64,000 nt of DNA from Octopus vulgaris (taxonomy: Eukaryota). Location: positions 109,368,001-109,432,000 of the forward strand of contig OX597814.1 in NCBI GenBank assembly GCA_951406725.2. Reading direction: 5' to 3'. A program made the position numbers and the translations under genes. Below the pieces are notes generated by a model, which was not told the DNA's origin, made no database searches, and was given only the letters and a program-made list of their open reading frames with translations. Below are positions 6,555 through 62,840 of the stretch, piece by piece (position 1 is the first letter of the stretch; every line of letters begins with the position of its first letter).

Positions 6555-7734
6555 CTAAAAAACAGATTTATACAAAATGTGACAGTACATATGGCATAGT
6601 GGTTAAGAGTGCGGGCTACTAGCCCCAAGATTCCGAGTTCAATTCCAAGTAGTGACCTGAATAATTACAACAACAATAACAATAAGTACCTTAGGAATGA
6701 GAACTCAGGTTTGAAATTTCCCCAAGACACCTGATGAAGGCTGGAGGGTATATCAGCCAAAATGTTGTGTTAACAACAAACAAGATGAGGACAAAGATCC
6801 ATCAAATGTAAAGTAAAATGTGACAGATTTGATAAAAGGCACAGTATAAAACAAATAAAATAGATGTAATAAATAAAGGCATTTTAGCATATAATGAAAT
6901 GCTCTTTGCCCCTTTTGATACTAATCTGCTACAAAACACCTGTAATTTTATAATTTAAAAAACATACCTGCCTTGTTTAAAGTATTCAATTAGTGAAATA
7001 TTCTATCATCATCATCGTCATTGTCATTTAACGTCCACTTTCCATGCTAGCATGGGTTGGACGGTTTGACTGAGGGTTGGTGGGCCAGAAGGCTTCACCA
7101 AGCTCAATCTGATCTGGCAAGGTTTCTACAGCTGGATGCCCTTCCTAACACCAACCACTCCGAGAGTGTAGTGGTTGCTTTTATGTGTCAATGGCATGAG
7201 AGCCAGTTAGGTGGTACTGGCAACAACCACACTCAAATGATGTTTTTTACGTGCCACCTGCACGGGAGCCAGTTCGGCGGGACAAGCAACAACCACACTC
7301 AAATGTTGTTTGTCACATGCCATCGGCACAGGTGCTAGTAAGACAACACTGGCAACGATCATGCTCGAATGGTGCTTTTTATGTGCCACCAGCATGGGAG
7401 CTAGTCAGTGGCCCTGGCAACAATCACGCCTGGATGGTGCTTTTAACGTTCCATTGGCACGAGTGCCAATCAGGCAATACTGTCATCGGCCACATCAGCG
7501 ATTTTGATTTCACTTGCCTCAACAAGTCTTCGCAAGCAAAGTTTATTGTCCAATGAATGGGGAGTACTCATAAGTGGGCTGGTTATACACCACTGGTATA
7601 GTCCACAGGTTCAATGGGTTATTTTCATTTTATTTAAAAATATTTTGTCAAGTTGTGTTTAAAACACCAGATTAACACTGAAGAATGTACAGGTAAAATA
7701 AGCAAAGAATATACAGGAAATAGATTTTCTCAAA

Positions 7735-12218: not shown

Positions 12219-13234
12219 TAATATACTTGCTCAATATACCTGTGCATTTTTAATGGCACCAAGTATGGGAGTTGAAGAAATCACAAAGAAACAAAGAATG
12301 AAGACAATTCACACAATGTTAATCTTCACAAATGGAACAGGTTCATTCCCAACAACTGGCCTATGTCAGCATCAAGTGCTACAAGGGCTAGGCAGATGCT
12401 TTAGAAGGAAACAAATCATCCATTGCTGCTGGGTGTTGGAAATGATTCCAGTATGGCTGTCAAGCTATACACAAAAAGGAATCAACTGATAACGAGAGTG
12501 TGTTGATCATCATCATCATCATCATCACTGTTTAACATCCGTTTTCCATGCTGGCATGGGTTGGACAGTTTGACTGGGATCAAATGTAAATAATTGTACA
12601 TAATTCTTCATCTCTTAAATATAGAACTGTGTGTATATATATATATATAAACACACACACATGCACACATACACACATGCAATGGGCTTCTTTTAGTTTC
12701 CGTCTCCCAAATCCACTCACAAAACTTTGGTTGGCCTGAGGCTGTTATAGAAGACACTTGCCTAAGATTCTACACAGTTGGACTGAACCCAGTACCATGC
12801 AGTTGGGAAGCAACACTTTCTTTGCTGTTCCACCCTTGAAACAGCAGGACATCAGGACTGCCCCAGTATTTGGGTTTAGTAATGTAAAATGAAGTACACA
12901 ATGTGCTGCCTAGTCTAGGAATTGAATTAACGATCTTATGATCATGAGACCAACACTCAAACCTTTTAGACTACATGTCTGTTAAGGTGAGGGTACTAAG
13001 AGTATCATTGCCTCCATGTTCTGAGAAATTTTGCTATGCCACAGCTCTGGATATGAATAGTCTTATTGGTGCAGAAGAATTGGAGATGGAGAAAAAATAC
13101 AAAAAGAAAAAAAAAACAATGAAATTCTTAATCAAGGAACTGTGTTTAATTGAACATTTGCTCAAATCAGTCATCAAAATTATGACGTTCATTTTGAAAG
13201 TTAAAAAGAATTTTTGTAAAACTTAAACTCTGAC

Positions 13235-28420: not shown

Positions 28421-31153
28421 GTAACAACAGTTAAGGAAACCAATGCAGAATAAGTTTGGAGCAATGAGTATTTAGAATAAAATATGTGTGTGTGTGTGTG
28501 TGTGTCCGTGTCCGTGTGTATGTGTCCATGTGTGTGTGTGTGGGTGTGCCTGTGTGTGGGTGTGTCTGTGTGTGTGTCTGTCTGTATGAATGTGTCTGTC
28601 TGTGTCTCTGTGTATCTGTATGCGTGTGCCGTGTTTCTGCGTATAAGTGTGTATGTGTGTAGATGCAACCATGGCCGTGGGATTAAGATGTTTGGCTCTT
28701 AACAACACAGCCATGTTTGTATCTATACAGGTATGTATAGATGCATGCACAGAATGTACAAAAGCAATAGGTTTTTCAAGAAATATAACAAAAAACAAAC
28801 ACACCCAATCCTCTACACTTAATTACAACATGCAACTCCCAAAAAACACAGAGCTTTATAACATTATCCACCAGAACAGATATATGTGCAAAAAATAAGT
28901 CCCTCAAATTCCAAGTATTCCCACAATACCGTTGTTCAGTCAATGCCACAAATAAATGAAGAAGATATATTCATACAAAATTACAAGGCAAAACTGAATA
29001 AACTTTAACAAAGCACATTTATCAATGACTATTCACACACAAACACATTCTGCCACCAGACATGTTGAATCTACACTGCCAACAACCTGAACTTTGGACA
29101 CAATCATGACGTTTTCTCCTATGATACTGACACATGAATTTAGTGGAGAACAAAATTTATGGCTACTTACATACATTCAAATCATAATCATTTCAGCCAC
29201 TGGACTATATAGCAACAACTCCTGTCCACTCTACTACTTGACAGATTAAATTTAGAGAGCCTTGATTCTTTGGGACTGTCACTAGACATGTTCACTCAAC
29301 CATGTCAGCCTAAACTAACCCCAAAAAGCATTGTTACATGACATCAAACACAGAGAACTTACAAAAATTTCTAAGTCAAATCATGTTTTCTTCCTGTTAA
29401 TCAAATTGTATCCTAAACAGATACTAATTTAAGCTATGATCTCTTATAATAAGAACAAGAAAATTTCCAAGCAAGATAGTTGCTTGAATAACTCCATGTC
29501 TTCCTATCTCACTTAACTTAATCAGAAACTGGTTGAGCTTTCAAAAACAAATTATCTAAAAGGCTCAGTTCATTTTCAATTTCTTTTTCTATGTTTCTAC
29601 GTGTGTGGAATAAAATAATTGTTTCATGTGTATATGTTAAAAGCACCATTCGAGTGTGATCATTGCCAGGGTTGCAGACCGGCTCTCGTACTGGCGGCAC
29701 GTAAAAAGCATCATTTGAGCGTGGCCGATGCCAGTACTGCCCAACTGGCCCTCGTGCTGATGGCACATAAAAAGCACCCACTACACTCTCAGAGTGGTTG
29801 GCGTTAGGAAGGGCATCCAGCTGTAGAAACTTTGCCAGATCAAGATTGGAGACTGGTGCAACCTTCTGGCTCACCAGCCCTCAGTCAAGCCATCCAACTC
29901 ATGGGAAGTGGATGTTAAGTGATGATGATGATATATATATAAGTACATATGCATGTATATGAATATATATGTATAGTGTTTGATTGTTTTTCTGGCTTCA
30001 GTCTTAAATTGTATCTATCCTGGGGCAAGACCATCAAAAGTTTCACTGATCATACCAACCCCAGTAATTCTTTGCCAGTCCACTACTAATTTTACTAATC
30101 TATATCTAAGATAAAGCAATTCTGGAGATGCAGTAGTTCTAAATAGTAATATATATAATAATAGATCCGAAAAAAAAAAATATTCTAACATTATTCACAT
30201 TATTTACCTTAGATGAATATGTGTCCTCATCATGTTTGTTGTTACCACAATGTTTTGGCTGATTTACTCCCCAGCCTTCATCAGGTGTCCTGGTAGAATT
30301 TTGAATCCAACCCTGGGTTCTCATTCCTAAGGTATTTTTTGCTGATGTTATTATTATCATCATTATTGAGTGAGAGAGCAGTGCATGCCATCAAAGTGAC
30401 ACTGGGGTAAAATATACGAAGCCCAGTATACCCATCATGAGTACCCGTCTGATAAGGGTACACTAGGCACATGCATCACCACCAAATGTGCGCAACATGG
30501 TGATCTCATATCAAGATAAACAACACATGACCTTGCAGGTGAGGCCCAGTTAGAATTTTCTTCTTGTCGAGTAAACCCATCCTGTTCAAAAGGTCCCTGA
30601 ATAAGGGTTGTTTAAGGATGTTGAATGAACCACCCATGTTTCCAGAGGTGAATTATTCAAACCCCAAAGTATCCCTCTCAACACATGGCTATGATGCTCC
30701 CCCACTACTTCTGCTCGTGATCAGAGATGCACATATCGTCAGCCACCAAGGGACATAGTCAACTGGTTAAGGTCAAACAACTGACAAGCAAATCTGTGGT
30801 ATTGAGCAGAATATTTGCTGTATTATTATTATTATCATTTATTCAAGGCACTGCTTGGAATTTAAATTGAAATCTTGGGGTTAGTAGCCCATGCTCTTAA
30901 CCATTACACTATATGCCCGTGGGCAATTATAGAGTGAATTTTAGGGCTTATAAACCTAATATTCAGCCGAAATGTTGTGGTAACAACAAACAAAATGAGG
31001 ACTCATATCCATCCAATGTAAATAATGTACAGAATTCTTCATCTCTAAAATATAGAACAGGAATATACTAACATTCAAGAAACTCTATGGAAGATATACA
31101 GTTTTGTTGGTTAAATTTACAATGATTACATATAAATGAAAAACAAAGGATAT
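28421..31153 (-). other. U12 (minor spliceosome) AT-AC intron of RNF123
   Basis: 5' splice site ATATCCTTT; branch point TTTCCTTAAC followed by TGTTGTTAC|exon; the join restores the frame (V-L-F-D). Confidence 0.95.
30365..30820 (-). mobile_element. Retroposon 3' segment inserted into the (TAA)n linker of a hammerhead-SINE copy
   Basis: Splits the 30185-30960 element; (TTA)n on both sides. Confidence 0.55.
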
Positions 31154-39773: not shown

Positions 39774-42072
39774 TCATCATCATCATCATCATCATCATTT
39801 AACGTCTGTTCTCCATGCTAGCATGGGTTGGACGGTTCGACCGGGGATCTGGAAAGCCAGAAGGCTGCACCAGGCTCCAGTCTTATCTGGCAGTGTTTCT
39901 ACAGCTGGATGCCCTTCCTAACGCCAACCACTCCGTGAGTGTAGTGGGTGCTTTTTACGTGCCACCTGCACAGGTGCCAGGCGAGGCTGGCAACGGCCAC
40001 GGTCGGATTGGTGTATTTTATGTGCCACCTGCACGGAAGCCAAACGAGGGGGTGCTGGCATCGGCCACGAGTCGGATAGTGCTTTTTACGTACCACCAGA
40101 CTAGGGATCCTGGCTGGTTCAATTCGATTTCGATTTCGCTTGCCCCAACATGTCTTCGCAAGCAAGGGGGTTGGCATGGGTGCCTGTCGTACGGTCAGAT
40201 TGGTGTATTTTACGTGCCACCGGCACGGAAGCCAGTGGAGGCGGCGCTGGCATCGGCCACGAGTCGGATAGTGCTTTTTACGTACCACCAGACCAGGGAT
40301 CCTGGCTGGTTCAATTCGATTTCGTTTTCGCTTGCCCCAACATGTCTTCGCAAGCAAGGGGGTTGGCATGGGTGCCTGTCGTACGGTCAGATTGGTGTAT
40401 TTTACGTGCCACCGGCACGGAAGCCAGTGGAGGCATCGGCCACGAGTCGGATAGTGCTTTTTACGTACCACCAGACCAGGGATCCTGGCTGGTTCAATTC
40501 GATTTCGCTTGCCCCAACATGTCTTCGCAAGCAAGGGGGTTGGCATGGGTGCCTGTCGTACGGTCAGACTGGTGTATTTTACGTGCCACCGGCACGGAAG
40601 CCAGTGGAGGCGGCGCTGGCATCGGCCACGTGTCAGATAGTGCTTTTTACGTACCACCAGACCAGGGATCCTGGCTGGTTCAATTCGATTTCGCTTGCCC
40701 CAACATGTCTTCGCAAGCAAAGGGGGTTGGCATGGGTGCCTGTCGTCGGATGAGGTTCTATATCGACTTCGCTTGCCTCAACAGGTCTTTGTGTCCAAGG
40801 GAGGAAAGGCATTCATAAGTGGGCTGGGCTCACTTGTCCTGCCTGGTCTTCTCACGTACAGAATATTTCCAAAGGTCTCGGTCGCTGGTCATTTCCTCAG
40901 TGAGGCCTAAAGTTTGAAGGTCGTGCTTCACCACCTCGTCCCAGGTTTTCCTGGGTCTACCTCTTCCACGGGTTCCCTCAACTGCTAAGGATTGGCACTT
41001 TCTCACACACCTATCTTCATCCATTCTCGCCACATGACCATACCAGCGCAATCGTCTCTTGCACACCACAACTGATGCCTCTTAGGTACAACATTTCTCT
41101 CAAGGTGCTAACACTCTGTCGAGTATGTACACTGACATTACACATCCATCGGAGCATACTGGCTTCATTCCTCACGAGCTTACGCATGTCCTCGGCAGTC
41201 ACGGCCCATGTTTCACTGCCATGTAGCATGGCTGTTCGTACACACGCATCATACAGTCTGCCTTTTACTCTGAGCGAGAGGCCTTTAGTCACCAGCAGAG
41301 GTAAGAGCTCCCTAAACTTTGCCCAGGCTATTCTTATTCTAGCAGTTACACTTTCAGCGCACCCACCCCCACTACTGACTTGGTCACCTAGATAACGGAA
41401 GCTATCAACTACTTCTAGTTTTTCCCCCTGGAAAGTGACGGAAGTTATTTTCTGCAGATTTTCGGAGGTTAATGCTCCAGAGCATTTGCCACATACAAAA
41501 ACTATCTTCCCAGTTAGCCTACCTTTGACATTGCTGCACCTCTTATGTGTCCATAGCTTACACTGGGTACATCTTATAGAGTTTCTACCTACACCTTTTC
41601 TACAGATCGAGCAGGGCCATCTTCCTGAAGACATTTGTGGATTGTCTACCTTCCTACTTATTAGTACTTTGGTTTTAGCTAGGTTGACTCTAAGGCCCCT
41701 CGATTCTAAACCCTCCTTCCACACCTGGAACTTCTCCTCCAGCTCTGATAGTGACTCAGCAATAAGAGCAAGGTCGTCAGCGTAGAGGAGCTCCCAGGGA
41801 CAACCTGTCTTGAATTCCTCCGTAATTGCCTGGAGGACTATGATAAATAGGAGGGGGCTGAGTACTGAACCCTGGTGGACCCCAACCTCTACTTTGAATT
41901 CTTCTGTGTACATGTTGCCAACCCTAACCTTACTTACGGCATCTCTGTACATGGCTTGCACAGTCCTCACCAGCCATTCATCTATCCCCAGTTTCCTCAT
42001 TGACCACCAGATAAGGGATCGGGGGACCCTATCAAAAGCTTTCTCCATGTCAACAAAAGCCAGGTACAGGGG
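39771..42072 (-). mobile_element. 5'-truncated RTE LINE of a related subfamily with PHD insert, expanded 3' UTR and (GAT)n tail abutting (TA)n
   Basis: ORFs 41017-42075 and 40830-41069: FVDMEKAFD, YADD, FRYLG, RGRPRKTW; one frameshift. Confidence 0.95.
39970..40745 (-). repeat. About four near-identical ~180 bp tandem units in the RTE 3' UTR
   Basis: Unit ...gtgtattttacgtgccaccggcacggaagcc...gggatcctggctggttcaattcgatttc...gcatgggtgcctgtcgt repeated; also visible as a repeated peptide in ORF 39815-40753. Confidence 0.9.
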
Positions 42073-42073
42073 C

Positions 42074-43150
42074 ACTCAAAGGAATTCCAACTCCATTTTT
42101 CACGTTTTATTTATAATCTTCTAATATTAATATAACACATAAGATATGATATAGTAAAAAGAAATGAAATGAAGTATTAATTGTCTCTTCTTATTGAACA
42201 AATGTAATATTAAATGTCCATTCTTATTGAACTCCTATACTTTCTTGCATTTATGCAATCTTCAGGTTCATATGGTGGTGGTGGTGACAGTTGTGTTCAT
42301 TGGTTTCAGCTGTGGTTGACTGGTTAAATTTTGTCCTTTATATACATTCCTGTGGATAGATGTAGTAGTTGCTTGGCTATTTTTAGAAATGATACTATAC
42401 CATTTTTCAATGTTTATCTTTATAAATGAAGACAGCAGTACTTTTTTAGAGATCTTTATTTTTTAGATATGGGGATAAGACTGTTATACCTTAAATGTGT
42501 GCACCAACAACAAATTACAAGTCCAGAAGCCCGCCAAATACCACTGAGTAACCACCTAGCAACAAGTGGCCGGAAAACATATATAATACTTCCATTTCAT
42601 AAACTATACAATCAGAATGAAATCGAGAGAAAACTGAGAGAAAAGGACTTTATAATTCAAACCCAAGCTTAATAAACAATGATAAAAAATAATCTTATTT
42701 AAGGTTTAAAATTCATATCCCCATATCTAAAAAATAAAGATCTCTAAAAAAGTACTGCTGTCTTCATTTCTGAAAATAAACACTGAAAAATGGTATAGTA
42801 TCATTTCTAAAAATATCCAAACAACTACTACTTCTATCCACAGGAATGTATATAAAGGACAAAATTTAACCAGTCAACCACAGCTGAAACCAGTGAACAC
42901 AACTGTCACCACCACCACCATATGAACCTGAAGATTGCATAAATGCAAGAAAGTTCAATAAGAATGAACATTTAATATTTCATTTGTTCAGTAAGAAGAG
43001 ACAATTAATACTTCATTTCATTTCTTTTTACTGTATCATATCTTATGTATTATATTAATATTAAAAGATTATAAATAAAACATGAAAAATGGAGTTGGAA
43101 TTCTTTTGAGTAATATATTCTTCTATACACAATCATACAAACCCCTTTGT
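42074..43150 (+). mobile_element. Penelope-like 3' end: ~400 bp inverted terminal repeats (42074-42478 / 42717-43110) around a GIY-YIG C-terminal fragment, ending at (TA)n
   Basis: Spacer reads HQQQITSPEARQIPLSNHL...LPFHKL...ERKLREKDFI..PKLN; arms carry tgaac-CTGAAGA-ttgca(taaa)tgcaa-GAAA...gttca. Confidence 0.8.
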
Positions 43151-44189: not shown

Positions 44190-45132
44190 ATTCATTATTG
44201 TCAAGGAAAGAATATAAGATAAATGCTCTCATAATTTGTGGCTTCTCTAATAAAATATAATTAAACTCAGTATTTAAAAAAATAAATGAATAAATAAATT
44301 CTGTATTTACAGATTGCCACAAAGAAAACAAAGAAATTATAACCATGTTGTTGGGAAGCAAGCTTCTTACCATATGGCCACTCCTGCGCCTATAGTAGAA
44401 GACATTTGCTGAAGGTGCCATGCAGTGGGACTGAACTTGGAACCATATGGTTTGGAAGCAAGCTTCTTACCACACAGCCACGCCTGCGCCTATGTAAGTT
44501 TTCAGATTTCAGCTTCTTCAAGAATGTCTTGTACAGATGAACTAAAAAGGAAGCCTCTTAATAGTCACTCAATCTGTTAGACATAGTAACCAAAATTCCT
44601 TCAGATCACACTCTACAACCATAGTCCTAAAGATACAAACAGATGGACTGGTCATGGTTGGCATACTTTTGATCATACATCTGCTGTACTTAATGATGCC
44701 AGATCTGCATTTAAATAAACACAAGAACTTCTTATACAAGAATAGTGCCCTAATTAGTTGTCCTTGTAACAAAAACCACTCAGTGCCTCACATCCATCAA
44801 TTTATGAATTTACCAAATTTTCATTTTAATGCTTATTTTATGATCAGGTATTTCTATAAAATAATAGCTAATATAAATTTGGCTGGTTGGGTGATTTCTC
44901 CAATCACATCACACTTTCATGATACAGAGAAAAGGTGGGGAGAGAGAGAGAGATACATACAGAGAGATAACATAAGAGGTACAGGATGAATACACATGCT
45001 AGGCTTGGTGGAATGCAATGAATAAAAGAACATACACATACAGATATATCATAGTAACAAAAAACACACACACACGTACACATTTCATTTGATATAAATG
45101 ACAGACAAGAAATATCAGTTGATAAAGGATAT
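44190..45132 (-). other. U12 intron of RNF123 with apparent AT-AT termini
   Basis: 5' splice site ATATCCTTT; branch point TTTCCTTGAC followed by AATAATGAAT|ATATCAG; this join gives L-R-Y-Q-V-E-G-Y in frame. Confidence 0.8.
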
Positions 45133-45258
45133 CTAAGAGGTATTGCCCCAAAATTAGCACGAACATTTTCCGACATGGATAAACTGACAGCAGGGAAATA
45201 GGCATATCCTGGGCCACATCTGACATTATTGAAAGCCTCTCCAAGACATTTCCCATTC
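45133..45258 (-). CDS. RNF123: RNF123 exon 7, SPRY end (NGKCLGEAFNNVRCGPGYAYFPAVSLSMSENVRANFGAIPLR)
   Basis: NGxxLGxAF...YFPAxSL...NFG motif; ttcag acceptor; U12 donor ATATCCTTT. Confidence 0.95.
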
Positions 45259-45430
45259 CTGAATTTAAAAAGAAAAATCACATACATATATCTATTAGTT
45301 CTTCAACAGTTTATATATAAATGCATTTGCTTTGCAAGATTCCTCATGTGAAACTGTGTCTTGAAACAGATATTGTTATATTTCAGAATAGCCAAATAAA
45401 TACACGCACTATATATATATACATATATAT

Positions 45431-48400
45431 ACCAGTATACCCTGTTCTCACCATCTACACCGGATACGCCCTACTCCCTCCTCCTCCCCCCACTACCCCT
45501 TCTCCTCATATGCTTTCACTGTGAAAAGACAAGCTGCTAGCGCCATAGCTCATCAACTACCCACCGATCTTACGCTTCCTCCTGACACTGCCTCAATCCG
45601 ACCATCCCCTTTTAGTACCCTCCCGCCTCGTAATATCCTACGTTTTTATTTCTTACGAACCTACACCAACCCTTCCTGCCATCGTTCCTCCTTACCCCAA
45701 CCTTCCCCACTGGTTGCTCCCCTATATTACCCACACCCTCTACTATCTCTCCCTCTCTTTCACTGGTGAAACCTTTCTCAACTGGACCCCCCTCCCCAAC
45801 TCAACTCTAGAATATCTGTATTTCTTTCCTCTACCTAATTACGTTACTCAGTGACGATAACGAATGTCCACTGCTAACACCAGCTCCTGCCCACGGCGTG
45901 GTCAGGTTGGAAGAGAGATCAAAAGAAAAATACCACGAAAACTATCACCACCACAACAACCCTCCTCTTCTCAGGCGCCGAATACCCCCCGTCCCCCCCA
46001 CATCTCCTTCCCAGTTTTCAGAGTTGGCACTATCAATGTTGGTACATTGACAGGCAAGTCTAGTGAGATTGTAGAGATGCTAGAGAGAAGACAGGTTGAT
46101 GTATTCTGCATACAAGAGGTAAGATGGAGAGATGCTTCGGCTAGGGTCCTCACGGGCAAGGCACTTAGGAACAAACTCTACTGGCAAGGTAACGCGGAAG
46201 GTGTAGGGGGTGTAGGCATTCTCCTTGCGGAGGAATGGGTGGATAAGGTCATAGAGGTTGTCAGGGTTTGTGATAGAGTGCTTAAGCTCAGGTTGGTCCT
46301 ACAGAGTGGCACAGCTATGATTATCTCAGCCTATGCCCCACAAGCGGGACTACCAAATGATCAGAAGGACAACTTTTATGATACCCTTCTGCAGGCTACT
46401 TCAAAGACTAGTAACAAGGACCTCATCTTTGTAGGTGGAGATTTTAATGGGCATGTTGGGCGGGAATCGGGTATCTTCACTGGGGTACAAGGTGGCTATG
46501 GTATTGGCACCAGAAATGATGAGGGAACTAGACTGCTGGAATTCTGTGATGCATGTAACCTTTCAATCTGCAACACTAACTTCAAGAAGCCAGTCTGCCA
46601 CCTTATAACTTATCAGTCAGGAGACTCCGCTAGCCAAATAGACTTCATCCTCACCAGACAACGGGATGCAGGGTTGCTCTTGAATACAAAGACCCTCCCA
46701 GGTGAAGAATGTATCCCTCAGCATAGACTAATCATCAGTGACTTTAAGCTTGAGGCCAGAAGGACTCCAAGAAACAAACCAATCCAGAAAAGAAGGATTT
46801 GGAGGCTAAAGAACCCTTCGCATGGTCAGAAATTTAGGGACATACTCATCAAGAAATTTGATGAGAGGGAGGAGGAGCTTCAGACGTCAGACATAGAAGG
46901 TAGCTGGGAATTCCTACGGGACAGCTTGCTGAGTGCCACAGACCAAGTCTGTGGATGGTGCAAAGTCCCTTCCAGACCTAGAATTACGTGGTGGTGGAAT
47001 AGTGCAGTAGATAAAGCCATCTGTGAAAAGAGACGGGCCTGGAAAGCCTGGAAGGATGGGGGCAGCAGGGAACTGTACCAGATAGCCAAAAGGGAGGCTG
47101 GGCGGCAGGTATACATTGCCAAAGATGTAGCAGAAAAGAAGAAGTTTGCCAATGTCCAGCGTCGCGAGGATCAAAGAGCTGAAGTATTTCGGATTGCCAG
47201 ACAGTGTGTCAGAGAAAATAGCGATGTTATAGGAGAGAAATGTGTCCGCATGGATGATGGGGCACTTGCTTTTACTACTAGTGAAAAGAAAGAGGCTTGG
47301 AGAAGCCATTATGAAAGACTGCTGAATGAGGAGAATGAATGGGAGGAGGAGAGCCTGCCAAATGTTGACCCAGTAGAGGGACCAGCTACCCGAATAGACA
47401 GCTCCCTTGTAGATAAGGCAATTAAGGATATGAAACCAGGCAAAGCCCCTGGCCTATCAGGAATCACTGCTGAGATGCTTAAAACAGCTGGCTATGTGGG
47501 CTATGCCATAGTCACCCGCATTGTAAACCAGGTAGTTCACAATGGAGTCATACCCAATGACTGGTGCAGCAGCACCATAGTCAACTGCTACAAGGGTAAG
47601 GGTGATGCTCTAGATAGAAATAACTACAGAGGTATCAAACTGTTGGACCAGGTGATGAAGGTCTCAGAGAAGGTCATAACCAATCTCATTAGGGAGAGAA
47701 TTTGTTTAGATGAATTGCAGTTCGGTTTTGTACCAGGTAGAAGCACCACAGATGCTATATTCCTGGTCCGACAACTGCAGGAGAAGTACCTAGCTAAAGA
47801 TAAACCCCTCTACATAGCTTTTGTAGACTTGGAGAAAGCCTTTGACAGGGTTCCCCGTTCCCTTATCTGGTGGTCGATGCGGAAACTGGAGATTGAAGAA
47901 TGGCTAATAAGGGCTGTACAGGCTCTATACAGAGAGGCTGTCAGCAAGGTTAGGATTGGCAACGAATATAGTGAAGAATTCCGGGTAGAAGTAGGTGTGC
48001 ACCAGGGCTCAGCCCTCAGTCCCCTTTTATTCATCATAGTCCTTCAGGCAATAACAGAGGAATTCAAAACGGGATGCCCCTGGGAGCTCCTCTATGCCGA
48101 TGACCTATCTCTCATAGCAGAATCACTACCGGAACTAGAAGAGAAATTCGGGTGTGGAAGCAAGGGTTGGAATCAAAGGGCCTTAGAATAAATGTAGCAA
48201 AGACCAAAGTATTAGTAAGCAGCAAGAGGTACTCAGCACACACCCCCTCGGGTAGGTGGCCCTGCTCAACCTGTAGGAAAGGTACAGGTAGAAACTCCAT
48301 AAGATGCACCCAATGTAAGTTATGGACACATAAGAGGTGCAGCAACATTAAAGGGAAATTAACAGATAAGATAGCTTTCATGTGCGGCAGATGCACAGGG

Positions 48401-49408
48401 ACAATAGACAACAGACACTCAGAAAACAGATTCCATCACACTCCAGGGAGAGAAACTAGAAGTAGTTGATAGTTTCCGCTACCTGGGTGACCAAGTTAGT
48501 AGCGGAGGTGGATGCACAGAGAGTATCACCACTAGAATACGAATAGCCTGGGCAAAGTTCAGAAAGCTCCTACCCCTACTGGCAACAAAAGGTCTCTCCC
48601 TCAGAGCGAAAGGTAGATTGTATGATGCATGTGTGCGAACTGCCATGCTCCACGGTAATGAAACATGGGCTGTGACTGCAGAAGACATGCGTAGACTTGA
48701 AAGAAATGAAGCTAGCATGATCCGCTGGATGTGTAGTGTCAGTGTGCACGCAAGACAGAGTGTAAGCATCCTGAGAGAAATGCTGGATATAAGAAGCATC
48801 AGATGTGGTGTGCAAGAGCGACGCTTGCGATGGTATGGTCATGTGCTGCGGATGGATGAAGAGAGATGTGTGAAGAAGTGCCACTCCCAAACAGTTGAAG
48901 GTATCAGGGGGAGAGGTAGACCCAGGAAGACATGGGATGAGGTAGTCAAGCATGACCTCAGAGTATTGGGCCTCACTGAGGCAATGGCGAAGGACCGAGA
49001 TCTCTGGAGATATGCTGTGACTACAAAGACCCGGGCTGCTTTCTGCAGCAATTCCACTTACCCCCTACCCATTCTAAGTACCCCGGATCCCCAAAGTACC
49101 CTGGATCCCCAAAGTACCCCGATCCCCAAAGTACCCCGGACCTCGTTGCCCCCGTGCCGCTGACACGTTAAAAGCTCGAACCGATCGTGACCGATGCCGG
49201 ACCCTCCGGCCCCTGTGCAGGTGGCACGTAAAAAGCACCCAATCCACTCACGGAGTGGTTGGCGTTAGGAAGGGCATCCAGCCGTAGAAACTCTGCCAGA
49301 TTCAGACTGGAGCCTGGAGTGGCCCCTGGCTTCCCAGACCCGGTCGAACCGGCCAACCCGTGCTAGCGCGGAAAGCGGACGTTAAACGATGATGATGATG
49401 ATGATGAT
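45431..49408 (+). mobile_element. Near full-length RTE-clade LINE (pyrimidine-rich 5' leader, APE endonuclease, RT, PHD insert, 3' UTR, (GAT)n tail); frameshifts near 48148 and 48410; inserted in (TA)n
   Basis: ORF 45864-48191 with GTINVGTL, IQEVRW, GDFNGHVG, QIDFIL, SD, KAPG, NYRGIKL, QFGF, FVDLEKAFD, GVHQGSALSP, YADD; later FRYLG, LRWYGHV, RGRPRKTW. Confidence 0.95.
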
Positions 49409-62384: not shown

Positions 62385-62837
62385 TTATCTGTACATTATT
62401 TACATTTGATGGATATTTGTCCTCATCTTGTCCGTTGTTAACACAACGTTTCAGCTGATATACCCTCCAGCCTTCATCAGGTGTCTTGGGAAAATTTTGA
62501 ACCTCGGTTCTCATTTCTAAGGTATTTTTCAATGTTATTATTATTATTATTATTATTATTTAGGTCACTGCCTGGAATCGAACTCGGAATGCTGGAGTTA
62601 GTAGCCCGTGCTTTTAACCACTACGCCATATGGCGTAGTGGTTAAGAACATGGGCTACTAACCCCAAGATTCCGAGTTTGATTCCAGGCAGTGACCTGAA
62701 TAATAATAATAATAACATCGAATGAGAACCCAGGTTCGAAATTTCCCCAAGACACCTGATGAAGGCTGGAGGGTATATCAGCTGAAATGTGTTAACAACA
62801 AACAAAATGAGGACAAACATCCGTCAAATGTAAATAA

Positions 62838-62840
<3 letters not shown>
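62385..62840. mobile_element. Head-to-head pair of a tRNA-headed, hammerhead-bearing short repeat; other copies 6588-6812 (+) and 30185-31058, and a 3' tip at 12580-12630
   Basis: Palindromic junction aaccactacgccat|atggcgtagtggtt; A/B boxes; CTGATGA...GAAA core in each arm. Confidence 0.85.
62440..62485 (-). ncRNA. Minimal type I hammerhead ribozyme motif
   Basis: GACAC-CTGATGA-A-GGCTG(gagggtatat)CAGCT-GAAA-CG-TT-GTGTT; stems I and II pair; palindromic AACGTT stem III. Confidence 0.72.

What the first reader, a model, noticed from the sequence alone, without database searches (positions are those of the whole stretch)
62385..62840. tRNA-headed short repeat carrying a hammerhead ribozyme: candidate Penelope-mobilised SINE/retrozyme
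Seen: a ~250 bp non-coding unit. It has a tRNA-like head (A box TGGCGTAGTGG, B box GAGTTCGATTCC), a (TAA)n linker, a minimal type I hammerhead (GACAC-CTGATGA-AGGCTG...CAGCy-GAAA-CGTT-GTGTT) and an AT-rich 3' end with no LINE-type tail. It occurs at least four times (6588-6812, 30185-31058, and twice here). Here two copies are fused head-to-head at a perfect palindrome centred on 62629/62630. Established: minimal hammerheads with palindromic stem III and inverted terminal duplications are hallmarks of Penelope-like elements, and Pol III boxes plus a hammerhead are known from Schistosoma Sm-alpha repeats. Inference: a Pol III-transcribed, self-cleaving non-autonomous element copied by Penelope RT/GIY-YIG instead of a LINE, possibly via dimeric cleavage and circular RNA. 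I do not know of a description in cephalopods.
Basis: partly seen in the sequence, partly recalled or inferred. Interest (0 to 1): 0.85.

Follow-up and report, generated by a model that had tools for sequence, protein, structure and literature searches.

The report
Penelope retrotransposon with tRNA-type promoter
The repeat is the terminal repeat of an abundant protein-coding Penelope retrotransposon. It carries a tRNA-derived promoter-like head at the point where most copies begin, so this coding element is likely switched on like a SINE, by RNA polymerase III, and litters the genome with short copies of its own start.

Summary
It is the pseudo-LTR of an autonomous ~2.6-kb Penelope element (reverse transcriptase + GIY-YIG). 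The head follows the ORF stop in 27 of 30 endonuclease-bearing loci. The 'body' holds the start codon and the minimal hammerhead. Short and ORF-linked units share one majority sequence.

Canonical Penelope marks are present: two 3' ends about 31 nt apart, inverted partners, and 8-15-bp duplications around 49 of 86 head-to-head pairs.

The unusual part is the tRNA-derived head with intact A and B boxes. Of copies reaching its edge, 34 of 39 and 29 of 38 stop within -17..+7. The majority sense strand has no run of four T over about 2.6 kb (P 0.006-0.03; a second Penelope family is also T-run poor).

Likely mechanism: RNA starts at the head, reverse transcription begins internally in the ORF start and copies back to the RNA 5' end. 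Pol III is inferred; a TATA-like box at -34 keeps Pol II open. There is no genomic sign of hammerhead cleavage or tandem arrays, and RNA reads were uninformative. Not found in nine literature searches; Repbase/Dfam unchecked.

The parts
62390..62629 (-). Left arm: short pLTR unit (head, linker, ATG, hammerhead, short-class 3' end)
62630..62840 (+). Right arm: inverted partner unit, with two small deletions
62614..62645 (.). Perfect 32-bp palindrome at the junction, centred on the self-complementary hexamer at head +4..+9
62618..62628 (-). A box, left arm
   Evidence: sequence
62574..62585 (-). B box, left arm (intact)
   Evidence: sequence
62535..62561 (-). (AAT)n linker, left arm
62512..62514 (-). 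Start codon of the Penelope ORF as it lies in the pLTR (left arm)
   Evidence: frame runs into the N-terminal ORF in L121/L100 and the L402-L431 set; its use as start is inferred
62440..62485 (-). Minimal type I hammerhead, core intact, G-U at the base of stem II
   Evidence: architecture as in PMC4209133
62631..62641 (+). A box, right arm
62674..62685 (+). B box, right arm (one C-to-T change)
62699..62715 (+). (AAT)n linker, right arm
62751..62793 (+). Hammerhead, right arm, lacking the stem III palindrome
6588..6828 (+). Single short unit starting at head +4; hammerhead core decayed
30196..30963 (-). Unit that extends about 45 nt upstream of the head to the ORF stop codon; another repeat is inserted in its linker (about 30368-30820)
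30963..31058 (+). Inverted partner with the long-class tail; probable target duplication at 30179-30192 and 31062-31075 (14 nt, one mismatch)
   Evidence: read from the sequence
12579..12627 (+). Tail-only fragment

Best explanation
The repeat is the terminal repeat (pLTR) of an autonomous Penelope retrotransposon, and its tRNA-derived head is likely a polymerase III promoter from which the element's RNA would start. Reverse transcription would begin inside the RNA, about 123 or 154 nt past the start codon, and copy back to the RNA 5' end. That gives the short head-to-tail units. Longer copies would need an RNA that reads through the ORF into a second pLTR. Head-to-head pairs are likely single events in which both nicked target strands, about 12 bp apart, prime one copy each, and the two copies are joined at their head ends. 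SHOWN: identity as pLTR, the two 3' ends, the pile-up of 5' ends, the duplications around pairs, the lack of T4 runs. INFERRED: that the pile-up marks the RNA start, the polymerase, and the priming steps (by analogy with Poseidon of Anolis).
For: The head directly follows the endonuclease end in 27 of 30 loci picked by endonuclease similarity. Near-full copies run tail, N-terminus, RT, endonuclease, head, body, tail (L136). Of 30 loci picked by the N-terminus, 26 have the body upstream. In 3 the whole head is there on the same strand, starting at +3, -2 and -182. 5' ends (offsets from the first G of the head): 34 of 39 hammerhead-anchored copies that reach +7 stop in -17..+7, a rate of 0.068 per nt against 0.0049 inside the head and 0.0015 upstream; 29 of 38 in a 3'-anchored sample (some loci shared with the first sample); 29 of 30 head-picked copies start in -23..+8. 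3' ends fall in two classes, 0 of 92 run on into the ORF, and 19 of 32 match the ORF continuation by 2 nt or more against 9% by chance. This parallels the two internal start sites of Anolis Poseidon (PMC11167929). Duplications of 8 nt or more flank 49 of 86 pairs against a 3.7% null. The A and B boxes match the consensus while the tRNA stems are partly broken (majority head, read by eye). There is no T4 run in the majority sense strand from two backbones; P = 0.028 under codon shuffles and 0.006 with Phe codon bias removed. Decayed copies have 0.35 T4 per kb; all 8 other Penelope ORFs of 450 aa or more have T4, mean 3.2 per kb.
Against: No transcript evidence. RNA depth follows the genomic 3' gradient, both strands are about equal, and no start pile-up appears at the head (a related organism, and the reference had a decayed head). 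The T4 signal is modest: a second Penelope family in this genome has 1 run in 1.43 kb against 3.7 expected, one foreign ORF has 1 in 2.5 kb and several shorter ones have none, and first- and second-order Markov nulls give P 0.07 and 0.24. A TATA-like word at -34..-29 fits Pol II equally well. The 5' ends spread over about 16 nt rather than one base. An uncapped Pol III RNA would have to be translated (general knowledge). No intact ORF was seen in any copy.
Confidence: 0.45

Rival explanations
1. Same element and same copying route, but the RNA is made by polymerase II from a TATA-like box over the ORF stop codon. The tRNA-like head is a captured SINE or tRNA remnant that happens to lie at the start site.
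For: A TATA-like word lies at -34..-29, about 28 nt before the commonest upstream ends. Drosophila Penelope has an internal LINE-like promoter (PMC2377424 abstract) and rotifer pLTRs have TATA plus initiator (PMC3846280 passages). Translation is unproblematic. The head followed by (AAT)n looks like a captured retrocopy.
Against: The boxes are intact while the stems are decayed. There is no T4 in about 2.6 kb. 5' pLTRs that begin at -2 or +3, without the TATA-like word, precede ORFs. The head was not seen with another body: 26 of 30 head-picked loci continue into this body and the other 4 break off.
Confidence: 0.27
2. One reading: lone short units are themselves transcribed by polymerase III and recopied in trans, as a Penelope-dependent SINE.
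For: Short units dominate, keep both boxes and both 3' start sites, and lack T4 internally. pLTR sequences sufficed for mobilisation in trans in a rotifer.
Against: No diagnostic majority differences from ORF-linked units. 3' ends show a few bases of ORF continuation. Anolis Poseidon needs the first 172 nt of the ORF in its template, more than short units hold, if that carries over.
Confidence: 0.13
3. The pile-up is not an RNA start. Reverse transcriptase stalls or folds back at the small hairpin at -7..+5, or the RNA is cut there by RNase P, or lone units arise by recombination between pLTRs.
For: A natural hairpin sits at -7..+5, and 41 of 120 short-unit junctions were scored as fold-backs. 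Palindromes at pLTR 5' ends are known.
Against: 79 junctions without fold-back cluster in the same place. The stronger hammerhead stem II stops few copies. The acceptor and T stems are too broken for a good RNase P substrate (by eye). Pairs flanked by duplications are direct insertion products, not recombination remnants.
Confidence: 0.15

Closest known systems
Penelope/Poseidon PLEs, e.g. Poseidon of Anolis carolinensis (PMC11167929, text parts 1-2 of 4) and Adineta Pen2 (PMC3846280, passages)
   Same: Single RT + C-terminal GIY-YIG ORF starting inside the pLTR; hammerhead over the ORF start; optional 30-40-bp tail; inverted truncated partner; 9-10-bp duplications around inverted pairs; uncut RNA as template.
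   Different: The pLTR begins with a tRNA-derived A/B-box head plus microsatellite, most copies end at that head, and the sense strand lacks T4. None of the passages read mentions such a head.
TRIMp3: Helenus, Ajax, Cassandra (PMC10886601, passages)
   Same: Small-RNA-derived Pol III-type promoter inside a terminal repeat; boxes conserved while the RNA structure decays.
   Different: Those are non-autonomous LTR elements of 0.3-1.3 kb, and the paper expects their autonomous partners to use Pol II. Here the head is in the repeat of the coding element itself.
Schistosoma Sm-alpha / Sj-alpha SINE-like repeats (review PMC6765202, passages)
   Same: Pol III-type promoter followed by a hammerhead.
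   Different: Those are non-coding, often tandem, and released by cleavage. This unit is dispersed or inverted, is part of a coding element, and shows no cleavage footprint.
Animal non-LTR retrozymes (PMC7229834, passages; bioRxiv 10.64898/2026.07.22.740005, part 1 of 5 and passages)
   Same: pLTR-related, hammerhead-bearing, a few hundred bases long.
   Different: Retrozymes are defined by tandem arrays, which are rare here (4 of 92). The preprint's text has no occurrence of 'tRNA' or 'promoter'.
Octopus SINEs OK, OR1, OR2 (Ohshima and Okada 1994; paper not seen, cited in PMC4758252, PMC4824008, PMC5804259)
   Different: The passages class OR1/OR2 as CORE-SINEs. I could not compare sequences, so identity with one of them is not excluded.

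Membership tests
EN+ Penelope-like element | Single ORF with RT and C-terminal GIY-YIG endonuclease | tested here: met
   RVT_1 E=0.0011, below the cut-off, on L058; 68%-identical homolog P0001 has RVT_1 E=1e-11; Atlas top clusters GIY-YIG, score 0.96, family on 15-27% of members. Pfam GIY-YIG itself did not hit. All copies seen are broken.
EN+ Penelope-like element | pLTR repeated at both ends and overlapping the ORF start | tested here: met
EN+ Penelope-like element | Inverted 5'-truncated partner | tested here: met
   54 of 92, 62 of 94, 20 of 30
EN+ Penelope-like element | Optional 30-40-bp tail | tested here: met
   ends at about ATG+123 and ATG+154
EN+ Penelope-like element | Minimal type I hammerhead in the pLTR | tested here: met
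   motif matches PMC4209133; 848 exact copies; similar motifs in 5 foreign Penelope loci; no Rfam hit; covariation and cleavage not tested
EN+ Penelope-like element | Spliceosomal intron in the pLTR (some members) | tested here: inconclusive
   no sense-strand splice joint among the listed joints (98 joints not shown)
Penelope/Poseidon clade | Placement by RT tree; no Zn-finger linker before the endonuclease | tested here: inconclusive
   no such linker by eye, unlike the second family; no tree built
tRNA-derived SINE | tRNA-derived head with A and B boxes | tested here: met
   boxes match; aligns with genomic tRNAs, best Arg(TCG), parent not resolved
tRNA-derived SINE | Non-coding element distinct from its autonomous partner except for a shared tail | tested here: not met
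   the whole unit is the partner's pLTR and has the same majority sequence
tRNA-derived SINE | Transcription by Pol III | not testable with these tools
   uninformative
Non-LTR retrozyme | Head-to-tail tandem units | tested here: not met
   4 of 92
Non-LTR retrozyme | Circular RNA made by double self-cleavage | not testable with these tools
   genomic proxy negative: 3 of 94 ends near the cut

The most novel reading that the evidence does not exclude
A protein-coding retrotransposon transcribed end to end by RNA polymerase III. A captured tRNA promoter drives a 2.6-kb, terminator-free RNA that is translated without a normal cap, and the same RNA's 5' end is copied into tens of thousands of SINE-like units. 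The element would be its own SINE, and a route by which Penelope-dependent SINEs and retrozymes are born.
Probability: 0.3. Interest if true: 0.82.

Novelty: new variant of a known kind. Interest (0 to 1): 0.58.

Why it matters
Autonomous retrotransposons are taken to use Pol II (or Pol I read-through), and Pol III-type heads to belong to short non-coding elements; PMC10886601 states this expectation for LTR elements. A coding Penelope element whose copies begin at a tRNA-type promoter makes that rule directly testable. The copy ends also give in vivo support for internal priming, shown so far in vitro for one element, and suggest two-strand priming as the source of Penelope's inverted pairs. 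In practice, tens of thousands of these units would be annotated as SINEs. If Pol II turns out to be the enzyme, this is an ordinary Penelope family with a curious captured head.

Tried and rejected
Rfam and ARAGORN gave no tRNA or hammerhead call; relaxed ARAGORN gave only an implausible fold.

One search hit an unrelated young SINE inserted in the query.

Sequencing runs: no RNA holder listed. Raw reads of a related organism were laid but could not address start site or strand.

An apparent hot spot of junctions 226-264 nt past the tail was dropped, because the query length selects for it. The idea that 5' ends mark the hammerhead cut was tested and rejected.

The 5'-end control in the second Penelope family failed: 9 matches only.

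The A/B-box regex found nothing behind 81 foreign Penelope loci but detects only 4 of 28 of our own decayed copies, so this is no evidence.

The structure model was too poor to use (pLDDT 41) and was not searched; the PDB sequence search gave only distant RTs. Single-strand folding of the hammerhead is no better than shuffles; covariation cannot be judged within one star-like family.

The first metagenome scan and the viral scan were empty. Offsets were mis-numbered and redone; the body comparison was empty and redone.

Literature: searches listed no paper on a tRNA-headed pLTR. Repbase, Dfam, the 1994 octopus SINE paper, the published octopus repeat library and bioRxiv supplements could not be seen and may hold this family.

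Full report
OBSERVATION. The two units at 62390-62629 (-) and 62630-62840 (+) meet at a perfect 32-bp palindrome. The other copies are as reported, plus a tail fragment at 12579-12627. Only the left arm keeps a complete hammerhead core. The genome is 2.8 Gb in 227 contigs. Exact patterns give 848 (46 nt, hammerhead) and 3,920 (29 nt, body) matches, and a 53-nt head pattern with up to one mismatch gives 823, with 0 in each control. With about 5.5% non-CpG and 25% CpG divergence, the 29-mer count implies roughly 3x10^4 copies; this is my estimate. Four other coded organisms share 38-42% of sampled words in runs of unrecorded kind.

WHAT IT IS. Upstream of the head, several loci run into the end of a reading frame. 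So does the window copy at 30196-30963, by about 45 nt. [quoted passage not shown] The head follows the stop codon in 27 of 30 endonuclease-picked loci (one is the query's own locus and three look like recent duplicates of each other). In L121 the body and tail run in frame into the N-terminus. Of 30 N-terminus-picked loci, 26 have the body upstream. The unit is therefore the pLTR, and the hammerhead overlaps the ORF start, as in Anolis Poseidon (PMC11167929). Majority sequences of ORF-linked and short units are identical in head (41 vs 99) and body (37 vs 91). The columns with p<0.01 are mostly near the head's 5' edge, where ORF-linked copies carry small deletions; one more lies just past the B box and one is a CpG in the body.

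PENELOPE MARKS. 3' ends fall at about ATG+123 (38 of 92, including unclassified ends) or in the long class near ATG+154 (54 of 92). None continues into the ORF. Of 32 long ends with a clean anchor, 19 match the ORF continuation by 2 nt or more, against 9% by chance. An inverted piece lies upstream in 54 of 92 and 62 of 94 copies. Direct repeats of 8-15 nt flank 49 of 86 head-to-head pairs (null 3.7%; a few are microsatellite matches) and 3 of 12 single units. So a pair is usually one insertion with both tail ends joined to the target. No duplication is recognisable at 62390/62840, where a (TG)n(TA)n run follows. One is probable around the 30-kb copy.

THE UNUSUAL PART. The 75-nt head has consensus A and B boxes with partly broken stems. 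It aligns with the genome's tRNAs (best Arg-TCG; 13 sequences of a few isotypes tried, parent unresolved). It was not seen on another body (26 of 30 continue into this one). 5' ends pile up at its edge. In the hammerhead-anchored sample, 56 of 92 copies have a head: 17 end inside it, 34 in -17..+7 and 5 beyond (binomial P 5e-27 against the in-head rate). In the 3'-anchored sample, 56 of 94 have a head, split 18, 29 and 9. These samples are the first listed matches on contigs 1-2 (90 loci each, out of 848 and 3,920 matches) and share a few loci. Modes lie at -7, -4 and 0. The majority sense strand has no T4 run from either backbone (depth 22 or more in the second) while it has 31-33 A4 runs. 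Nulls give P 0.0075 (base shuffle), 0.028 (codon shuffle), 0.006 (Phe bias removed), 0.07 and 0.24 (Markov). Controls: all 8 foreign Penelope ORFs of 450 aa or more contain T4, and an RTE-like copy in the window has 7 against 5.4 expected. But a second Penelope family in this genome has only 1 in 1.43 kb against 3.7 expected. The signal is suggestive, not decisive.

HOW IT MOST LIKELY WORKS. Frangieh et al. show in vitro that Poseidon nicks both strands, starts reverse transcription at two internal sites in the ORF start, needs the first 172 nt of the ORF, and uses uncut RNA. Carried over, an RNA starting in the 5' pLTR is primed at ATG+123 or +154 and copied back to its 5' end. That yields the short unit, and the pile-up maps the start site just before the A box. 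Priming from both nicks gives the head-to-head pair with its duplication. The window's palindrome is a join at the self-complementary hexamer at +4..+9. I infer Pol III from the boxes, the position of the ends and the lack of T4. A TATA-like word at -34 leaves Pol II open and is also compatible with Pol III (general knowledge). The hammerhead leaves no footprint: 3 of 94 ends lie within 5 nt of the cut, tandem units are rare (4 of 92), and the core is intact in 15 of 44 unselected copies by a check that also counted the CpG base before GAAA.

RNA. Three raw RNA runs of a related organism cover the element in proportion to its genomic gradient, about equally on both strands, with no start pile-up at the head. 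The reference copy's head was decayed, so this neither supports nor refutes.

KNOWN VERSUS NEW. The element is a member of the EN+ Penelope-like elements. It fails membership as a SINE or retrozyme, though its short copies look like SINEs. The nearest analogues for the head are TRIMp3 elements and Schistosoma alpha repeats, all non-coding. Nine searches of the open-access library listed no tRNA-headed pLTR. The octopus repeat papers give class totals only in the passages and the one supplement I searched. Repeat databases could not be searched. Papers seen: PMC4209133 and PMC11167929 (text parts 1-2 of 4); the retrozyme preprint (part 1 of 5 and passages); PMC2377424 (abstract); PMC13282606, PMC10886601, PMC8557442, PMC4758252, PMC4824008, PMC5804259, PMC7229834, PMC3846280, PMC8967140 and PMC6765202 (passages). 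Earlier scan notes describe tRNA-headed coding LINEs in other genomes; they are unchecked leads, not support.

VERDICT. A real feature and a new variant of a known kind. Identity as a Penelope pLTR is near certain. The promoter reading is the open and interesting part.

Noticed in passing
window 42239-42960: A second Penelope family with a Cys-rich linker before a GIY-YIG domain (Neptune-like by recall of the clade feature; Pfam GIY-YIG E=6.7e-5 on L297), an inverted pLTR, its own minimal hammerhead at about 42923-42957 and a TATA-like word upstream.
   Followed up: partly
window 45861-49163 (+) and 41017-42075 (-): Two APE-RT LINE copies (RTE-like by recall); one has a 776-aa open frame.
   Followed up: partly
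window 44907-45302 (-): Probable host exon with a weak SPRY match (E=0.036); RNF123-like by recall only.
   Followed up: no
L040 2430-2810; G000:C9:104443815-104445395: A very young tRNA-headed SINE (98-100% identity among the 43 matches) with a clear target duplication, and four tandem copies at about 434-bp spacing on contig 9.
   Followed up: no
window 30368-30820; L018, L021, L024, L133: Other repeats often sit inside the (AAT)n linker of this pLTR, suggesting a microsatellite-targeting element.
   Followed up: no
L403, L408, L410, L413, L424, L425, L428, L429: Copies built as pLTR, 200-260 nt of ORF start, then a second truncated pLTR with varied junctions; likely template jumps, and candidates for real non-autonomous masters.
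   Followed up: partly
window 62390-62840 and the 86 pairs: Read-through of a head-to-head pair would form a ~200-bp RNA hairpin, a possible editing or silencing substrate (inference).
   Followed up: no
L236 138-2854: Cluster of seven tRNA-Cys-like genes, two with drifted anticodons.
   Followed up: no
L401: A Penelope ORF with a hammerhead on a contig filed in a bacterial MAG, probably host contamination.
   Followed up: no
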